The position numbers and the translations under genes are program-made. Under the pieces are notes generated by a model. The model was given only the letters and a program-made list of their open reading frames with translations. It ran no database searches and had not been told where the DNA came from. Shown in pieces: positions 2,091-39,532 of a stretch of 60,270 nt of DNA. How positions within the stretch are numbered: position 1 is the first letter of the stretch; each line of letters starts with the position of its first letter. Origin of the DNA: a virus; UHGV virus genome UHGV-0335561, one strand, 5' to 3'.

Positions 2091-3390
2091 TCTCCCGCAT
2101 ATTGCCAGTATGGCCTTTAATGAGCCGCTGATGCTTGAACCCGCCTATGCGCGGGTTTTCTTTTGTGCGCTTGCAGGCCAGCTTGGGATCAGCCGCCTGA
2201 CGGATGCGGTATCCGGCGACAGCCTGACTGCCGGAGAGGCACCCGCGGCGCTGGCGTTATCCGTTGATGATGACGGACCACGACAGGCCCGCAGTTATCA
2301 GGTCATGAACGGCATCGCCGTGCTGCCGGTGTCCGGCACGCTGGTCAGTCGGACGCGAGCGCTGCAGCCGTATTCGGGGATGACCGGTTACAACGGCATT
2401 ATCGCCCGTCTGCAACAGGCTGCCAGCGACCCGATGGTGGACGGCATTCTGCTCGATATGGATACGCCAGGCGGGATGGTGGCAGGGGCATTTGACTGCG
2501 CTGACATCATCGCCCGTGTGCGTGACATAAAGCCGGTATGGGCGCTGGCCAACGACATGAACTGCAGTGCAGGTCAGTTGCTTGCCAGCGCCGCCTCCCG
2601 ACGTCTGGTCACGCAGACCGCCCGGACAGGCTCCATCGGCGTCATGATGGCTCACAGTAATTACGGTGCTGCGCTGGAGAAACAGGGCGTGGAAATCACG
2701 CTGATTTACAGCGGCAGCCATAAGGTGGATGGCAACCCCTACAGCCATCTACCGGATGATGTCCGGGAAACACTGCAGTCCCGGATGGATGCAACCCGCC
2801 GGATGTTTGCACAGAAGGTGTCGGCATATACCGGCCTGTCCGTGCAGGCTGTGCTGGATACCGAGGCTGCAGTGTACAGCGGTCAGGAGGCCATTGATGC
2901 CGGACTGGCTGATGAACTTGTTAACAGTACCGATGCGATCACCGTCATGCGTGATGCACTGGATGCACGTAAATCCCGTCTCTCAGGAGGGCGAATGACC
3001 AAAGAGACTCAATCAACAACTGTTTCAGCCACTGCTTCGCAGGCTGACGTTACTGGCGTGGTGCCAGCGACGGAGGGCGAGAACGCCAGCGCTGCGCAGC
3101 CGGACGTGAACGCGCAGATCACCGCAGCGGTTGCGGCAGAAAACAGTCGCATTATGGGGATCCTCAACTGTGAGGAAGCTCACGGACGCGAAGAACAGGC
3201 ACGCGTGCTGGCCGAAACCCCTGGTATGACCGTGGAAACGGCCCGCCGCATTCTGGCAGTTGCACCACAGAGTGCACAGGCGCGCAGTGACACTGCGCTG
3301 GATCGTCTGATGCAGGGGGCACCGGCACCGCTGGCTGCAGGTAACCTGGCATCTGATGCCGTTAACGATTTGCTGAACACACCAGTGTAA
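2071..3390 (+). CDS. C: capsid assembly protease / minor capsid protein C
   Basis: GTG start; VTAELRNLPHIASMAFNEPLMLEP..., lambda gpC. Confidence 0.93.
2785..3390 (+). CDS. nu3: scaffolding protein Nu3 (in-frame internal start within C)
   Basis: Internal ATG (MDATRRMFAQK...) in C frame, as in lambda. Confidence 0.8.
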   Translation: MDATRRMFAQKVSAYTGLSVQAVLDTEAAVYSGQEAIDAGLADELVNSTDAITVMRDALDARKSRLSGGRMTKETQSTTVSATASQADVTGVVPATEGENASAAQPDVNAQITAAVAAENSRIMGILNCEEAHGREEQARVLAETPGMTVETARRILAVAPQSAQARSDTALDRLMQGAPAPLAAGNLASDAVNDLLNTPV

Positions 3391-34710: not shown

Positions 34711-34926
34711 TCAACACACTGGCTGTAATACCATGCGGCATTTAGCGGCATTCATCGTACACTCCACGGTTAGCTCTTCATTCGTGGCATTCACCTGAAA
34801 GGTCCGGGAGTGTAATTGCGTACATTTACCACTGAACGAACCTTCAACAAGAACACGACCACGCTGCAAAATACGGAACGGAATTGTTCCCTGAAAAGGT
34901 TCTACGGTTACCCGTAATTTCTTCAT
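34711..34926 (-). CDS. hypothetical Cys-containing 71-aa protein
   Basis: Start overlaps Rz stop (ATGA); no family recognised. Confidence 0.45.
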
Positions 34927-35417
34927 GTATCCTCCGGATAATAAAAAGCCAGCTTAGTGCACTGAGTGCGGATATATTCCTGCGCCCCTTCCAGCTGCTT
35001 CTGCATTGTCATCAACCGTTCTCTGAGGATGAAATAATCCCGTTCAGCGGTGTCTGCCAGTCGGGGGCCGGTTGCATTATCCACGCTGGAGGTGCCGGTG
35101 GCTTCACGCACGGTACCGGGGCAGGTGGCGTTGACCCGCAGGCGCTTACGACCAGCGGCAACATCAGCGCGCAGAGTTTCATTTTCAGCTCTCGCATCGG
35201 CTAATTCCTTCGTGTATCTGGCATCAAGCGCAGCGACATCTCGCTGGCGCTGCTGCATGTCAGTAATAGTGGCATTCGCCAGTTTCAGCTCACTGACTTT
35301 TTTATCGCGCTGCGCTTTGTAGGTGATGGCGTTATCGCGGTAATGATTCAGCCCCAGACTAAGCACACCACAGGCTACCAGCATGACAATAATCACCACA
35401 CACAGAACACGGTTCAT
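34923..35417 (-). CDS. Rz: i-spanin Rz
   Basis: N-terminal TM ([16 protein letters not shown]), coiled-coil periplasmic domain; contains embedded Rz1. Confidence 0.85.
35012..35182 (-). CDS. Rz1: o-spanin Rz1 (lipoprotein), embedded in Rz in the +1 frame
   Basis: [34 protein letters not shown]; lipobox and Pro-rich. Confidence 0.85.
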
Positions 35418-35628
35418 ATCACCACCAACGGATTGCCCAGACCAGAACAGCAATGGCCACAATACGAATGGCAAATGCCATTGCCCGAATAAGTTCAGCA
35501 CTCATCTTTTTAAAGTTCACGATTTCAGCGCAATGACCAGTTTTGCCAGCCCATACAGCATCGGAGACACAGCAATACCAACAGCCACCCACTTAATAGC
35601 AAAAGCCAGCGCTCTGCTGATGTCATCA

Positions 35629-36059: not shown

Positions 36060-36593
36060 TTATCTGTCGATTCCCCAGCACGCCAGCGCGCTCTCCTGGT
36101 CACGACGGAATACCTGACCGTAACAGTTATTTGAGCGAATACGGCAGTCTCTGCCACCGTCCTTAATCCACCAGCGAATCGCTTCGCATGCTCCCCTGCG
36201 ATCACCTGCATTAATTCGTCTGTAAAACGTCGACGGGAAACACTTACCGGGACCAATGTTGTACGGACAGAATGACGCGATCCCCGCTTTCTGGGGTTCG
36301 GTCAATGGCACTTTGATGTTTTTCTCCACCCATGCCAGCGCCTTATCACGCTCAATGGCGTTAACCCGGTCGCATTTTTCCTTCGACAACTTCATGCCCG
36401 GAACGACAGGTTTGCCATCCACCAGGATGGCACCGCGGCAGATGGTCCAGATACCCGCGCCATCACGGTATGCCGTGGTGTGGTTACCTTCCTTTTCATC
36501 CAGAAACTGGTCGAGAATGTCAGGCGCAGGCGCACCAGCGGCAATCAGCGCCAGAACGGCAGCCGACAGGCCGTATCTGATTTTTGCGTTCAT
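36060..36593 (-). CDS. R: SAR endolysin (phage 21 / P1 Lyz-type lysozyme)
   Basis: 177 aa; N-terminal signal-anchor-release region (LSAAVLALIAAGAPAP), lysozyme catalytic region. Confidence 0.88.
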   Translation of the reverse strand: MNAKIRYGLSAAVLALIAAGAPAPDILDQFLDEKEGNHTTAYRDGAGIWTICRGAILVDGKPVVPGMKLSKEKCDRVNAIERDKALAWVEKNIKVPLTEPQKAGIASFCPYNIGPGKCFPSTFYRRINAGDRRGACEAIRWWIKDGGRDCRIRSNNCYGQVFRRDQESALACWGIDR

Positions 36594-36698
36594 GGATATT
36601 TATCAGGATTTATCGGTTTCTGAGCCCTGGATATGTTTATCAGTTCCAGCCTGTTGCCTCAGGCTGCTAACAGGTCAATACAATCATGAGGATTATTT

Positions 36699-36971
36699 AT
36701 GGACAATAACACCATTTCTCTACAGGAGTTGCTCGACAGCATTTCCAGGCTTCGGGAAGACGTGAATACCCTTACCGTCGCCTTCTCATATCTGGCATTC
36801 TCAATTCCAAGGGAACAGATGCAATCAACGCTGGCATCAATCCAGTTTGAATCATGCAATCCCAAATGGTCTCAGGAACAACAAGACTCTTTCAGGCGGC
36901 TTGCTGTATTACTGGATGAAAAATATGCTGGTAAAATTACCATTTCGGCGGACTCTTCAGAGAACCCGTAA
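36699..36971 (+). CDS. hypothetical 90-aa protein, opposite orientation to the lysis operon
   Basis: GAGGA RBS 7 nt upstream of ATG; 3' end overlaps the convergent 114-aa gene. Confidence 0.45.
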   Translation: MDNNTISLQELLDSISRLREDVNTLTVAFSYLAFSIPREQMQSTLASIQFESCNPKWSQEQQDSFRRLAVLLDEKYAGKITISADSSENP

Positions 36972-37281
36972 TTATTCCCGGTAGTTTTCCTCTGTAGGTT
37001 ATCAACACATCCTGCGCCTCTAAAATTACGGGGCGCTTTTCCGGCGACTGCTCATCCCCTTCACATAACCCGGCAGCAACATCCAGGAAGACCTGTCTGA
37101 TGCTCCTTCTGGCTGCTGCCTCATAAAACTCCAGCGCGGCACCTTCAACACGGTCCAGCGAGATGTCCAGGTCAAAAATTTCACCGTCAAAGCGTTTTTT
37201 GTCCCGTAACGCTAAAGTTACCGTAACTTTATTCTCAAAATTGCGGATCCCTTTCACAATCAGTTCATAGTTTTGAGTCAT
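36937..37281 (-). CDS. YdfR-like (DUF1327-like) prophage protein between holin and endolysin
   Basis: 114 aa MTQNYELIVKGIRNFENKVTVTLALRDKKRFDGEIFDLDISLDRVEGAALEFYEAAARR...; same slot as ydfR in Qin by recollection. Confidence 0.6.
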   Translation of the reverse strand: MTQNYELIVKGIRNFENKVTVTLALRDKKRFDGEIFDLDISLDRVEGAALEFYEAAARRSIRQVFLDVAAGLCEGDEQSPEKRPVILEAQDVLITYRGKLPGIITGSLKSPPKW

Positions 37282-37285
37282 TGAA

Positions 37286-37501
37286 TTACTCTCCCCGTGC
37301 CGCCTTACGACGGTCCTCTCTGATTTTGAAATACAGGTTAGTCAGATATGTCAGCAGCCCAAACAGCAGACTCCCCAGCACGCCTATTGCCGCCCACTGA
37401 GACGGGGAAACCCTGTCCAGCAACTGCAGGAACCAGTAGCCCGTTCCCACCGCTGACGTGGTGTATGACACACCTGTTGTGATTTTTTCCATCTGGTACA
37501 T
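37286..37501 (-). CDS. S: pinholin (phage 21 S21-like class II holin, dual-start)
   Basis: [71 protein letters not shown]. Confidence 0.88.
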
Positions 37502-37651
37502 ACCCCGTCTCCCGTTATCCGGAAGCTGACAACAATAAAAAAAGCCACCAGTTAAGTACTGATGGCTCTGATAACTCATGCAGGCATCTCAGACGACCCA
37601 CTGACACTACCGGTGAGTTTAACGATACCTTCCATTTGACTGGCTCACTTT

Positions 37652-39532
37652 TTATGATGATGCCGGTGCATTTATCTCCAGCACCAGACTTTCTATCTCA
37701 ACGCCATACGTTGCATTTTTGGTAATATCCGTCAGCGTCAGCGCATTCAGCCCCAGTGTCAGACTGTCTTTTATGACCTGGAATGCCGGGCCAGCCACTC
37801 CATTCAGTTTCGGAGTAACCGTGGCACTGCCGGCGGTGAACACCAGCTCCAGCGTCTGCCAGTCGTTACTGTAATTCCCGAACTCGCCCAACTTTGTGTT
37901 TCCTGCTTTCTTGTGATGCATCAGATTCAGTTTGCCGTCTGTGGTCTGGGTGAAGAACGACATCAGGAACGGGTTACCAGTCCCGGTCATCGCCACGACG
38001 TCAGGTAACGCTACATCGGTATACAGATAAATTCCCAGACCGAACTGATTGTTGGTCAGTGCGCCTGACAGTCGAAACTTACAGCTCAGTCTGCCACCCC
38101 GTGTCAGCAGGGAGACTGCGTCATCCACCGGGCGCGTCAGGGACCAGGCTTTATTGCTCTGCTTGGTGATCTTAAATACACCATCTGACAACTGAATTCC
38201 GCCATTCTTAATGCTCCAGCCCTGCGCAGCAGCATCTCCGGCTGTCGGCAACAGGGAGATTGTGCGTACGGATGCATCTTCAGACGGCCCCGATGGCGTG
38301 TCGCCGCCGGGCGAGGGTTTGATTTCCGGTGCCTTACCACTGATGAAGGCTAAGGTGCGACCGGCTACGTTCAGAATAGCAGTTGCCATACGATCGGGAA
38401 TAATGCCACGACGCGCCCATGAGCTGAAATGCGTCTGGCGATTTGATGATACCCAGTTTTTGTTCGTTCGGGATGCCGAACCGTAATATCCCTCACTTGC
38501 AGCATCCGGATCTTCCGTTGGTGCGTTGGTGGAGGTATTGTTGCCACTACCATCGGTCAGGAACGGCACAAAGAAAACGTTGTCGCTCTCCCTGTTTTTG
38601 TACGCCCCGTAAATGGTGTCGTACTGCGTGCCGTAGGTGTTTTTCCAGTAATACGTCGTGTCACCACAAATCCATGGCACACTTGCCGCTCTGCCTCCAT
38701 GACACTGCGTGTTAAACTCGGTAATGTCCGCACGAAACTGTTTCAGCATGGCCGTAAACAGCGGAGGTTGCTGTGAGTACGTAGCGGCGCTCATGTCAAA
38801 TTCGCCCTGCATCCAGCATACGGCCAGCAGCATGTTTTTTGGGTTTTTCTGCAATGCGGCCTTCGTGCGCAAAATCAGGTCCTGATATAAAGGTTTACCC
38901 ACACCCCAGCGAGCCGAATCCTGACTGGCTCCTGTGGACTCGCTGAATGTCCCCTCCGCGCCCTGGGTGAATGCCGAACCACCACGACAGCATGGAACCA
39001 GTAAAATCCCGGCATTCTGTGGAATGTAAGGCAACAGGCGTTTGGCAATATGCAAGCCCTGTCCGACACAGCCATACTGCCCTTTGCTCAGGTCTGCATT
39101 CGGGTGATTCAGTGCGCTCATATCCTGAACATCATGCAGGCAGTGGTCTGCCGGAATGATGTCGTTAAATGCGCATGCTTTACCACCGGGAGTCACTGTG
39201 TTGCGACGGGCCAGTTGCTTAATGCGTGGGTGGGGCGCATCGTAAGAATCCGGCAGCGGCATTCCCTCACCATATGACATGGCATTGGATTGACCAGCAA
39301 GTACCACCACGTAATACCACTCCGGCACGCTGCCGTGCTGGGGGGAATCAGGTGAGATGTCTGTAGTGCCATCGGCCACCATTGCCTGCATTAGATACCA
39401 CGGGGTGCCGGGTTCGTAGGCAACCCGCGTCTCCCCCTGAAGATGCCACCCTTTCGCAAGATGTTCATTCACCTTTTGAGTCAGTTCAGCCTGTGTCATG
39501 GCTGTAATCAGTGCAAAGTTCTTACTGGTCAT
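37652..39532 (-). CDS. nanS: prophage 9-O-acetyl-N-acetylneuraminate esterase NanS-p (DUF1737 N-domain plus SGNH/SASA esterase)
   Basis: 626 aa; N-terminal MTSKNFALITAMTQAELTQKVNEHLAKGW, GQSN esterase motif (VVLAGQSNAMSYGEG). Confidence 0.8.
   Translation of the reverse strand: MTSKNFALITAMTQAELTQKVNEHLAKGWHLQGETRVAYEPGTPWYLMQAMVADGTTDISPDSPQHGSVPEWYYVVVLAGQSNAMSYGEGMPLPDSYDAPHPRIKQLARRNTVTPGGKACAFNDIIPADHCLHDVQDMSALNHPNADLSKGQYGCVGQGLHIAKRLLPYIPQNAGILLVPCCRGGSAFTQGAEGTFSESTGASQDSARWGVGKPLYQDLILRTKAALQKNPKNMLLAVCWMQGEFDMSAATYSQQPPLFTAMLKQFRADITEFNTQCHGGRAASVPWICGDTTYYWKNTYGTQYDTIYGAYKNRESDNVFFVPFLTDGSGNNTSTNAPTEDPDAASEGYYGSASRTNKNWVSSNRQTHFSSWARRGIIPDRMATAILNVAGRTLAFISGKAPEIKPSPGGDTPSGPSEDASVRTISLLPTAGDAAAQGWSIKNGGIQLSDGVFKITKQSNKAWSLTRPVDDAVSLLTRGGRLSCKFRLSGALTNNQFGLGIYLYTDVALPDVVAMTGTGNPFLMSFFTQTTDGKLNLMHHKKAGNTKLGEFGNYSNDWQTLELVFTAGSATVTPKLNGVAGPAFQVIKDSLTLGLNALTLTDITKNATYGVEIESLVLEINAPASS

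What the first reader, a model, noticed from the sequence alone, without database searches (positions are those of the whole stretch)
36594..37285. Convergent, 3'-overlapping gene pair inserted between pinholin and endolysin
Between S and R lie a 114-aa YdfR-like gene in operon orientation and a 90-aa gene on the opposite strand with a good RBS; their 3' ends overlap by about 35 bp. A convergent overlapping pair inside a lysis operon suggests antisense-regulated cargo, possibly a toxin-antitoxin-like pair or a lysis-timing modulator.
Basis: seen in the sequence. Interest (0 to 1): 0.45.

Follow-up and report, generated by a model that had tools for sequence, protein, structure and literature searches.

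The report
Convergent two-gene moron in lysis cassette
Between the holin and endolysin genes of this E. coli prophage sits a real, conserved accessory module: a late-strand YdfR gene and a small opposite-strand gene whose ends interlock. The same kind of module recurs in the tail and lysis operons of many lambdoid phages, and its function is unknown.

Summary
On the minus strand run S21-type pinholin (37286-37501), ydfR/DUF1327 (36937-37281) and SAR endolysin R (36060-36593). A 90-aa ORF (36699-36971, + strand, GAGGA 6 nt before the ATG) converges on ydfR with exactly 35 bp of 3' overlap.

The + ORF is a real gene. It matches PHROG 2411, stays open in alleles diverged to saturation, has pN/pS of about 0.2-0.37, and occurs in 1123 of 5426 complete E. 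coli genomes.

It is not lysis-specific and shows no toxin-antitoxin features. ES18 genes 24/25 and HK022 gp22/gp23, annotated as possible morons, show the same architecture in tail operons.

New here:
- In five phage lineages the convergent partner, otherwise unrelated, ends in the same C-terminal motif (G-[SD]-[LI]-x-x-P-x-x-x-stop).
- The motif differs between lineages at synonymous codon positions.
- Diverged relatives carry a conserved, covarying structured leader that also precedes at least 21 unrelated small cargo genes.
- Chromosomal relatives stand alone.

Best reading: an independently transcribed accessory gene that Q-dependent late transcription would silence, paired with a co-evolving late protein. 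This resembles the noncontiguous operon of phi80 Tai/Ati, but there is no homology to it. Function is untested.

The parts
37286..37501 (-). S21-type pinholin (71 aa, MYQM dual start). This is the upstream late gene and flanks the module.
   Evidence: Pfam Phage_holin_2_1 E 2e-32 and PHROG holin. 53.7% GC.
36937..37281 (-). ydfR, a 114-aa DUF1327/YdfR-family protein: N-terminal three strands plus a long helix, and a low-confidence C-terminal tail ending GIITGSLKSPPKW.
   Evidence: Pfam DUF1327 E 7e-43. AF2: strands 5-14, 18-27 and 34-43, helix 50-73, pLDDT below 50 from residue 73. Tail motif conserved in the partners of other lineages.
36699..36971 (+). orf90, a 90-aa protein of PHROG 2411: predicted three helices with a disordered tail at residues 79-90.
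   Evidence: PHROG 2411 E 1e-58. Homologues. Purifying selection and an open frame. AF2 helices 8-34, 38-52 and 59-77, mean pLDDT 78.
36937..36971 (.). 35-bp tail-to-tail overlap. The last 11 codons plus stop of ydfR lie antisense to the last 11 codons plus stop of orf90. The ydfR stop sits inside the conserved I-T codons of orf90's ITIS.
   Evidence: Coordinates. Codon register. The overlap is 7-35 nt in other lineages.
36688..36692 (+). Shine-Dalgarno GAGGA, 6 nt upstream of the orf90 ATG.
   Evidence: Sequence. GAGGA or AAGGA is conserved before the ATG in all 8 alleles examined.
36616..36698 (+). Leader of orf90: box CCCTGGATATGTT (36625-36637), TTCCAGCC, and a 7-bp hairpin CAGCCTG-TTGCCT-CAGGCTG (36647-36666). 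It looks like a degenerate copy of the conserved structured leader found before diverged family members and many other cargo genes.
   Evidence: Box match. Covariance model R1 aligns its positions 1-107 to 36616-36701, ending exactly at the ATG, but scores only 12.4 bits, E 0.6. Canonical copies score 46-110 bits in L087, Perceval, ES18 and HK022.
36060..36593 (-). SAR endolysin R (177 aa), the downstream late gene. It can be reached only by transcription antisense through the whole of orf90.
   Evidence: Pfam Phage_lysozyme E 9e-24. Gene order.

Best explanation
The pair is a two-gene, convergently arranged accessory module (a moron) lodged in the Q-dependent late operon. It is not part of the lysis machinery.

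Shown here:
- orf90 is a genuine protein-coding gene of a narrow Enterobacterales family (PHROG 2411) that encodes a small three-helix cytoplasmic protein.
- ydfR is a DUF1327 late-strand gene.
- Both are AT-richer than their neighbours.
- The module is present or absent between otherwise near-identical S-R cassettes.
- The same architecture recurs in tail operons and beside other lysis cassettes.
- In every phage lineage found, the PHROG 2411 gene is interlocked 3'-to-3' with a late-strand gene. That gene's C-terminus carries the motif [KR]-[IL]-x-G-[SD]-[LI]-x-x-P-x-x-x-stop, conserved at the protein level, while its N-terminal part differs.

Inferred:
- orf90 is transcribed on its own from the + strand through a structured 5' leader when late transcription is off, that is in the lysogen or a carrier state.
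- After induction, Q-modified polymerase must read antisense through all of orf90 to reach R. That would shut orf90 down by transcriptional interference and full-length antisense RNA, while producing YdfR.

More speculative:
- The co-inheritance of cargo type with the partner's C-terminal tail suggests the two proteins interact. The late protein may neutralise or redirect the prophage-expressed one, as in the noncontiguous operon of phi80 TaiEcA/AtiEcA.
- Published work reports that the K-12 YdfR N-domain binds the catalytic half of RNase E and co-purifies RNA. The effector side may therefore concern RNA decay.
For: Real gene:
-.

Insertion polymorphism and mosaic junction at the ydfR ...TPP codons:
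-.

Low GC of the whole ydfR + orf90 block:
-.

Same architecture elsewhere:
- ES18 genes 24 (DUF1327) and 25, and HK022 gp22/gp23, are annotated as morons between tail genes.
- Atlantibacter prophage, between tail genes M and L.
- Citrobacter prophage, upstream of a different holin.
- Klebsiella phage, near the terminase genes.
- Stx2k phage, with a different downstream lysis cassette.

Partner motif:
- It sits in a fixed register (G at -9 and P at -4 from the stop) in five lineages, with synonymous codon differences. In four of these lineages it lies mostly outside the orf90-family reading frame.

Cargo and tail swap together:
- In the same slot, Perceval/NC101 has a different 79-aa cargo (PHROG 21218) and a different ydfR tail. 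ydfR residues 1-85 are 95% identical.

Structured leader on the cargo-sense strand:
-. Compensatory changes occur in 8 of 18 pairs, and 0 of 500 shuffles reach the observed values.
- The conserved U-G and G-U pairs would be mismatches on the late strand.
- The start codon lies at a fixed distance.
- The covariance model hits independent loci.

Published support:
- Architecture precedent with experimental backing: PMC11364771.
- YdfR and RNase E: PMC13232886.
Against: - No promoter could be identified with confidence upstream of orf90. The consensus scan found none, and my relaxed scan gives only weak candidates.
- No convincing intrinsic terminator for orf90.
- The window's own leader is only a marginal match to the conserved leader model (12.4 bits, E 0.6).
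- No expression data exist here.
- Most ydfR genes carry the motif without any orf90 (116-aa and 176/183-aa forms).
- Chromosomal PHROG 2411 relatives have no such partner. A protein-protein dependency is therefore not obligatory.
- There is no sequence similarity to the phi80 reverse-strand 204-aa gene and its 76-aa neighbour, which I presumed to be TaiEcA and AtiEcA. In phi80 those two genes lie head-to-head, not tail-to-tail.
- Fold searches gave nothing.
- No multimer prediction could be run.
Confidence: 0.6

Rival explanations
1. orf90 is an independent single-gene moron with no functional tie to YdfR. The overlap and the shared partner tail reflect only where such cassettes recombine: the ydfR 3' end acts as a homology arm or junction.
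For: - Solitary chromosomal family members: between dinI and bssS, in Sodalis ligni, and after an AIDA-type autotransporter gene.
- ydfR-like DNA is in about four times more genomes than orf90.
- L088-L090 keep orf90 with only a ydfR remnant.
- The orf90 tail that overlaps ydfR is predicted disordered and varies in length between 83, 85 and 90 aa.
- The mosaic junction lies exactly at ...TPP.
Against: - The partner motif is kept at the protein level with synonymous codon changes across lineages whose DNA is saturated with substitutions. The partners are otherwise unrelated, which is hard to explain by a recombination arm alone.
- Other cargo types pair with other partner tails.
- Even the L088 remnant keeps the motif in frame.
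Confidence: 0.27
2. The pair modulates lysis timing. YdfR and/or orf90 would act on the pinholin or the SAR endolysin, or would tune R expression by lengthening the untranslated spacer and by antisense transcription.
For: - The pair lies between S and R.
- The ydfR-to-R spacer grows from 63 bp to 343 bp when orf90 is present.
- The late transcript and an orf90 transcript would collide (inference from gene order).
Against: - The same module type sits in tail operons and near terminase genes.
- The pair travels with a different lysis cassette in the Stx2k phage and sits upstream of an unrelated holin in Citrobacter.
- Many S21/R21 cassettes lack orf90.
- Neither protein has a membrane segment or any similarity to lysis proteins.
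Confidence: 0.08
3. It is a toxin-antitoxin-like pair: either a type I-like system with 3'-overlapping convergent transcripts, or a protein toxin with a protein antitoxin.
For: - A convergent 3' overlap is the geometry of Bacillus prophage type I systems such as txpA/RatA and bsrG/SR4 (from my own knowledge).
- The two genes are linked in phages.
Against: - No hit to any toxin, antitoxin or defence model.
- Both genes encode soluble proteins under purifying selection, not a hydrophobic peptide plus an sRNA.
- Either partner occurs without the other.
- Overproduced K-12 YdfR is not growth-inhibitory, although that allele lacks this C-terminal tail.
Confidence: 0.04
4. The + strand ORF is a spurious open frame over the untranslated spacer of the late operon.
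For: - No Pfam family.
- The antisense frame shows an equally low pN/pS.
Against: - The frame is open in all alleles, including those with saturated dS, with a conserved ATG and SD.
- The antisense frame is broken by stops.
- Family members at 26-43% identity keep their length and motifs in unrelated genomic contexts.
Confidence: 0.01

Closest known systems
Salmonella phage ES18 genes 24/25 and coliphage HK022 gp22/gp23 ('srb'), annotated as possible morons
   Same: - A small late-strand gene (DUF1327 in ES18) converges on a small reverse-strand gene inside a late operon.
- The reverse gene is preceded by the conserved structured leader (R1: 102 and 110 bits).
- HK022 gp22 and gp23 overlap by 81 nt.
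- No function is known for these genes.
   Different: - They lie in the tail operon (between M and L, or between I and J), not in the lysis cassette.
- Their cargo proteins are not PHROG 2411. The hhalign similarity is only weak (E 0.001-0.009 for a single comparison).
- ES18 gp24 lacks the G[SD]LxxP tail.
- The window's leader is degenerate.
phi80 TaiEcA/AtiEcA noncontiguous operon (He et al. 2024, PMC11364771)
   Same: - A reverse-strand gene interrupts the Q-dependent late operon and is expressed in the lysogen.
- Q expression reduces its level.
- An adjacent small late-strand gene encodes its cognate neutraliser. Binding was shown for the TaiSalB/AtiSalB pair.
   Different: - No sequence similarity.
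- The phi80 reverse-strand gene that I presumed to be TaiEcA encodes 204 aa, against 90 aa for orf90.
- The phi80 genes lie head-to-head, whereas this pair is tail-to-tail with coding overlap.
- No anti-phage activity, expression or binding has been tested for orf90 or YdfR.
P22 pid moron (Cenens et al. 2013, PMC3573128)
   Same: - An 86-aa soluble ORFan protein is encoded opposite to the surrounding late genes.
- The slot holds different inserts in related phages, and the gene has its own terminator.
- It acts on host physiology and is expressed only in a special (carrier) state.
   Different: - A single gene, with no interlocked partner.
- No R1 leader.
- Only a marginal profile similarity to orf90 (E 0.03).
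E. coli K-12 YdfR (Qin prophage, P76160)
   Same: - The same DUF1327 N-domain. DNA is 89.5% identical over window 37076-37283.
- The same position between essQ and rrrQ.
- Residues 1-72 are reported to bind the RNase E catalytic half and to co-purify RNA.
   Different: - The K-12 protein has 103 aa with a different C-terminus (the nucleotide match stops at window 37076).
- No nucleotide match to orf90 was found next to K-12 ydfR.
- The interaction has not been tested for this allele.
Classical lambdoid morons (lambda bor and lom, HK97 gp15)
   Same: - Extra genes inside or beside late operons.
- Atypical GC.
- Present or absent among relatives.
- Thought to be expressed from the repressed prophage.
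   Different: - Those are single genes with a recognisable promoter and terminator, and they encode membrane or surface proteins.
- Here there are two interlocked genes, a structured leader and no confident promoter or terminator.

Membership tests
PHROG 2411 (orf90) | Full-length match to the family profile | tested here: met
   E 1.1e-58 over 1-90 of 90 profile positions. Diverged relatives P0185, P0186 and P0197 also match, with E 1e-19 to 6e-9.
DUF1327 / YdfR family (114-aa gene) | Pfam PF07041 score above the gathering threshold | tested here: met
   145.2 bits against a cut-off of 25, E 7e-43. RefSeq names the same gene 'YdfR family protein'.
Moron (Juhala et al. 2000 sense) | Present in some phages and absent at the same site in close relatives | tested here: met
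   In phage 611R1 and relatives, ydfR is followed directly by R. Perceval has another insert at this site.
Moron (Juhala et al. 2000 sense) | Base composition differs from that of the neighbours | tested here: met
   Leader 41.0%, orf90 44.5% and ydfR 47.7% GC, against S 53.7% and R 55.1%.
Moron (Juhala et al. 2000 sense) | Own promoter and own terminator | tested here: inconclusive
   The consensus scan found no promoter or terminator for orf90. Only weak candidates appear (TTGCCT-19-TACAAT and TTTATC-17-TATGTT). The downstream hairpin is not significant (z -1.17). A conserved structured leader in relatives argues for a separate transcript.
Moron (Juhala et al. 2000 sense) | Expressed from the repressed prophage | not testable with these tools
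   No transcriptome or proteome data were available.
Conserved structured leader of reverse-strand phage cargo genes (model R1, built here) | Significant covariance-model match immediately upstream of the start codon | tested here: inconclusive
   Window 36616-36701 scores 12.4 bits, E 0.6. The match is full-length and ends at the ATG, but it is not significant. L087, a diverged orf90 relative not used to build the model, scores 46.5 bits, E 5e-9.
Tai/Ati defence and counter-defence noncontiguous operon | Reverse-strand gene interrupting the Q-dependent late operon beside a small late-strand gene | tested here: met
   Gene order and strands. A Q gene lies upstream of the S-ydfR-orf90-R cassette in the related phages Chlobot and 611R1.
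Tai/Ati defence and counter-defence noncontiguous operon | Sequence homology to Tai or Ati proteins | tested here: not met
   hhalign of the orf90 profile against the phi80 204-aa reverse gene, and of the YdfR profile against its 76-aa neighbour, gave probabilities of 1.2% and 0.2%. I assigned these two phi80 genes to orf63 and orf64 from their size and orientation.
Tai/Ati defence and counter-defence noncontiguous operon | Anti-phage activity of the reverse gene, and neutralisation and binding by the late gene | not testable with these tools
   This needs plaque assays and interaction assays. No multimer prediction was available.
Toxin-antitoxin system | Homology to a known toxin or antitoxin family | tested here: not met
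   No Pfam, NCBIfam or PADLOC hit beyond DUF1327.
Toxin-antitoxin system | Obligate co-occurrence of the two genes | tested here: not met
   ydfR-like DNA is in 4305 genomes and orf90 in 1123. orf90 occurs with only a ydfR remnant. Solitary chromosomal relatives exist.
Toxin-antitoxin system | One partner is growth-inhibitory on its own | not tested
   The only indirect evidence is that overproduced K-12 YdfR, an allele with a different C-terminus, gives no growth defect (PMC13232886).

The most novel reading that the evidence does not exclude
Lambdoid phages of Enterobacterales may carry a widespread, so far uncharacterised class of two-gene 'lock-and-tail' cassettes. In each, a reverse-strand, prophage-expressed small helical protein is driven through a conserved structured 5' leader that is absent from Rfam. 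More than 20 unrelated cargo types share this leader. The cargo gene is interlocked with a late-strand gene whose C-terminal tail co-evolves with the cargo. The late protein would use that tail to bind and switch off, or retarget, the prophage-expressed protein at the onset of late transcription. That would be a generic defence/self-immunity or host-manipulation switch. The YdfR N-domain would link one branch of it to RNase E. orf90/YdfR in this window would be one member.
Probability: 0.22. Interest if true: 0.75.

Novelty: new member of a known kind. Interest (0 to 1): 0.5.

Why it matters
About one complete E. coli genome in five carries orf90, among them the ST131 strain JJ1886 and E. coli B laboratory strains. 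Four in five carry a ydfR-like gene. Neither has an assigned role.

Placing the pair in a recurrent class of convergent two-gene morons turns an anonymous 'hypothetical protein' into a testable system. The class has a shared structured leader and cargo-specific partner tails.

Three questions follow:
- Is the reverse gene a prophage-expressed defence or host-modulating factor?
- Does late transcription silence it?
- Does the late protein neutralise it through its tail?

If the answers are yes, the slot would be a new hot spot of prophage accessory functions inside late operons. It would also give a function to DUF1327, for which published work already suggests a link to RNase E.

Tried and rejected
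- Rfam scans of the window region and of six related loci found no family.
- Sequence searches against solved structures, for YdfR and for the orf90 profile, found nothing.
- Foldseek of the orf90 model against PDB and BFVD gave no match below E 0.4. This is usual for a short helical bundle.
- The sigma-70 and terminator scan gave nothing for orf90. A hairpin inside ydfR (37014-37036, followed by TTTTCC) that could terminate orf90 is not supported by folding (z -1.17), and it is also present in phages without orf90.
- I tested whether the 79-aa ORF in Perceval is a diverged orf90. It is not (BLASTP gave nothing; it belongs to a different PHROG).
- I tested whether the C-terminal extension of the 176/183-aa YdfR forms is related to orf90. 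It is not.
- I tested whether the 238-aa Citrobacter partner is a hidden DUF1327. There is no Pfam hit, and hhalign matches only the last 17 residues.
- pN/pS alone could not tell the coding strand, because the antisense frame scores equally. Stop-codon counts settled it.
- The name 'ybl58', attached to some database entries, led to no paper. One such entry is a doubly frameshifted copy.
- The search for related loci with a diverse alignment failed. Single-protein scans added only three loci.
- hhalign of orf90 against Pid, HK022 gp23 and ES18 gp25 gave only weak, same-register similarity (E 0.03, 0.001, 0.009). That is not enough to claim one superfamily.
Full report
**1. What is there**

The lysis operon runs on the minus strand:
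- An S21-type pinholin at 37286-37501, 71 aa with a MYQM dual start.
- A 114-aa DUF1327/YdfR protein at 36937-37281.
- A SAR endolysin at 36060-36593.
- Rz at 34923-35501.

On the plus strand a 90-aa ORF spans 36699-36971. GAGGA lies 6 nt before its ATG. Its last 35 bp (36937-36971) overlap the last 35 bp of ydfR.

**2. The plus-strand ORF is a real gene**

- It matches PHROG 2411 over its full length (E 1e-58). RefSeq annotates it as a hypothetical protein.
- Homologues at 58-100% identity keep a length of about 90 aa in E. coli, E. albertii, Shigella, E. ruysiae and Citrobacter.
- Across eight alleles, two of them with saturated synonymous divergence, the +1 frame has no stop. All other frames are interrupted in most alleles. 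The ATG and an SD are conserved.
- Pairwise dN/dS in the 78 non-overlapping codons is 0.08-0.35, and uncorrected pN/pS is 0.19-0.37. Substitutions fall 77/44/156 on codon positions 1/2/3.
- The antisense frame that shares wobble positions gives a similar pN/pS. I discount this because that frame is broken by stops in 6 of 8 alleles.
- An exhaustive profile search of 1.8 billion representative proteins found only 21 clusters, so the family is narrow. The diverged members (26-43% identity to one another) keep their length, the AFSYLAF and ES-N motifs, and significant PHROG 2411 scores.
- AlphaFold predicts three helices (8-34, 38-52, 59-77) and a disordered tail at 79-90, which is the part that overlaps ydfR. 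Fold searches were uninformative.

**3. It is cargo, not lysis machinery**

- The nucleotide match to orf90 occurs in 1123 of 5426 complete E. coli genomes, including JJ1886 and E. coli B. ydfR-like DNA occurs in 4305.
- Phage vB_EcoS-611R1 and its relatives have a 116-aa ydfR followed 63 bp later by R, with no orf90.
- Phage Perceval and strain NC101 hold an unrelated 79-aa plus-strand ORF (PHROG 21218) in the same slot.
- The Stx2k phage has S21-ydfR-orf90 followed by a different holin/endolysin set.
- The leader, orf90 and ydfR have 41-48% GC. S and R have 54-55%.
- The mosaic junction lies at the ydfR codons ...TPP. After them come KW-stop (with orf90), ESQP-stop (no orf90), or an in-frame extension of about 65 aa (the 176/183-aa forms).

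**4. The same architecture elsewhere**

- In ES18, gene 24 (DUF1327, late strand) and gene 25 (reverse strand) sit between tail genes M and L.
- In HK022, gp22 and gp23 ('srb') sit between tail genes I and J and overlap by 81 nt.
- Both pairs are annotated as morons.
- Diverged PHROG 2411 genes lie in three further phage settings: between tail genes M and L of an Atlantibacter prophage, upstream of an unrelated holin in a Citrobacter prophage, and near the terminase genes of a Klebsiella phage.
- Other family members are solitary chromosomal genes. They lie between dinI and bssS, in Sodalis ligni, and after an AIDA-type autotransporter gene in E. coli.

**5. A conserved partner tail**

In every phage context the PHROG 2411 gene overlaps, by 7-35 nt, the 3' end of a late-strand gene that ends in the same motif in a fixed register:

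| Locus | Partner C-terminus |
|---|---|
| window | GIITGSLKSPPKW |
| L006 | EKITGSLRVPMKL |
| L087 | NRIIGSLITPPEL |
| L096 | DQIFGDLKKPPSY |
| L100 | KRLTGDILIPLES |
| L228 | EKITGSLRAPIKL |

- The codons differ at synonymous positions.
- In four lineages most of the motif lies outside the orf90-family reading frame. The conservation is therefore at the level of the partner protein.
- The partners are otherwise unrelated: DUF1327, a 238-aa protein, and a 71-85-aa coiled-coil protein.
- Cassettes with other cargo have other partner tails.
- Perceval swaps the cargo and the last ~20 residues of YdfR together, while residues 1-85 stay 95% identical.
- The L088-L090 contigs have lost the DUF1327 domain but keep orf90 and an in-frame remnant with the motif.
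- The motif often occurs without orf90, and chromosomal family members have no partner with the motif.

**6. A conserved structured leader**

Upstream of the diverged PHROG 2411 genes, and upstream of many other small reverse-strand ORFs, lies a leader of about 107 nt. In order it holds:
- CCCTGGWTAWGGT;
- TCAGCC;
- hairpin 1, with loop GUGGGA;
- hairpin 2, with loop GAUGGCUGAUUA;
- the SD and the ATG, at a fixed distance.

The evidence is as follows.
- These hits precede at least 21 unrelated cargo clusters. In 89 of 120 cases both neighbouring genes are on the opposite strand.
- Eight of 18 pairs show compensatory changes. No shuffle out of 500 reaches the observed values, and slid controls collapse.
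- One locus has an entirely different hairpin-1 stem.
- The conserved U-G and G-U pairs would be C-A mismatches on the late strand. This points to an RNA of the cargo strand, that is a 5' UTR.
- Rfam has no such family.
- A covariance model built here scores HK022 gp23 at 110 bits, ES18 gene 25 at 102, Perceval at 74 and L087 at 46.5. L087 was not used to build the model.
- The window's leader (36616-36701) aligns full-length and ends at the ATG, but it scores only 12.4 bits, E 0.6. It is at best a shortened copy, with a 7-bp hairpin at 36647-36666.
- No confident sigma-70 promoter or terminator was found.

**7. Mechanism**

Shown: gene order forces the late transcript to run antisense through the whole of orf90 to reach R.

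Inferred:
- orf90 has its own transcript with a structured leader.
- It is made when late transcription is off and is silenced by Q-dependent transcription.

Speculative: YdfR's tail contacts the orf90 protein.

The closest experimentally studied analogue is the phi80 TaiEcA/AtiEcA noncontiguous operon.
- The reverse gene is expressed in the lysogen.
- Its level drops when Q is expressed.
- The late-strand neighbour is its cognate neutraliser.
- There is no homology to it.
- The phi80 genes lie head-to-head.

P22 pid is a single-gene analogue.

Residues 1-72 of K-12 YdfR bind the RNase E catalytic half and co-purify RNA. Overproducing that protein is not toxic.

**8. Verdict**

- The toxin-antitoxin and lysis-timing readings are not supported.
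- The idea of antisense-regulated cargo that behaves as a pair is partly supported.
- The module is a new member of a known kind (a lambdoid moron, or noncontiguous operon).
- The shared structured leader and the cargo-specific partner tails are the parts most worth pursuing.

Noticed in passing
L105, L114, L223 (HK022 2554-2660), L224 (ES18 2561-2666), L004 (Perceval 2523-2637), and more than 120 IMG/VR loci (L103-L222): A conserved ~107-nt leader with two covarying hairpins precedes at least 21 unrelated small reverse-strand ORFs in the late operons of lambdoid phages. No Rfam family matches it. Its wobble pairs fit only the cargo-sense strand.
   Followed up: partly
L004 2635-2874 (+) and ydfR at 2871-3185 (-); also E. 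coli NC101 (H44): The same slot between ydfR and R holds an alternative 79-aa cargo (PHROG 21218). It comes with a different YdfR C-terminal tail (...NSSDNSITGC, 104 aa), so cargo and partner tail are exchanged together.
   Followed up: partly
P0091, P0069 and P0095 (YdfR variants): 176- and 183-aa YdfR forms continue in frame after ...TPP into a helical extension of about 65 aa (ALRSEKDDIES...). P0091 is seen on 463 contigs. I found no relation to orf90.
   Followed up: partly
L093 4001-4279 and L102 193-468: Diverged PHROG 2411 relatives (P0197, P0199) are ordinary chromosomal genes between dinI and bssS. They have no phage context and no convergent partner. I did not determine the host taxon.
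   Followed up: no
window 37541-37569 (-): A strong intrinsic-terminator-like hairpin (12-bp stem followed by a T run) lies just upstream of the pinholin start on the late strand. It is presumably read through by the Q-modified polymerase.
   Followed up: no
window 36594-36606 and 36630-36644: An imperfect direct repeat, GGATATTTATCAG and GGATATGTTTATCAG, lies in the orf90 leader immediately next to the R start codon. It may be a scar of module exchange.
   Followed up: no
L088 1589-2123; L006 4087-4770 and 4945-5847: Related prophages carry other cargo next to the lysis region: a ParE/ParD-like pair downstream of R (L088), and a HicA/HicB-like pair plus a 300-aa ORF that looks like an ADP-ribosyltransferase toxin (L006). 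The L006 identifications are by eye and were not tested.
   Followed up: no
L035 3001-4500: One viral contig has a rearranged cassette. An intact orf90 is followed by fused Rz and R fragments and then a second, 116-aa ydfR. This shows recombination inside the slot.
   Followed up: partly
window 37652-39532 (-): A 626-aa ORF lies upstream of the holin. From memory it resembles the prophage sialate O-acetylesterases (NanS-p) found between Q/stx and S in Stx-type phages. I did not analyse it.
   Followed up: no
L092 (E. coli B strain C3029, Rac prophage): E. coli B laboratory strains carry an intact essD-ydfR-orf90-lysozyme cassette (86.5% identical DNA) in the defective Rac prophage. That makes a convenient strain for experiments.
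   Followed up: no
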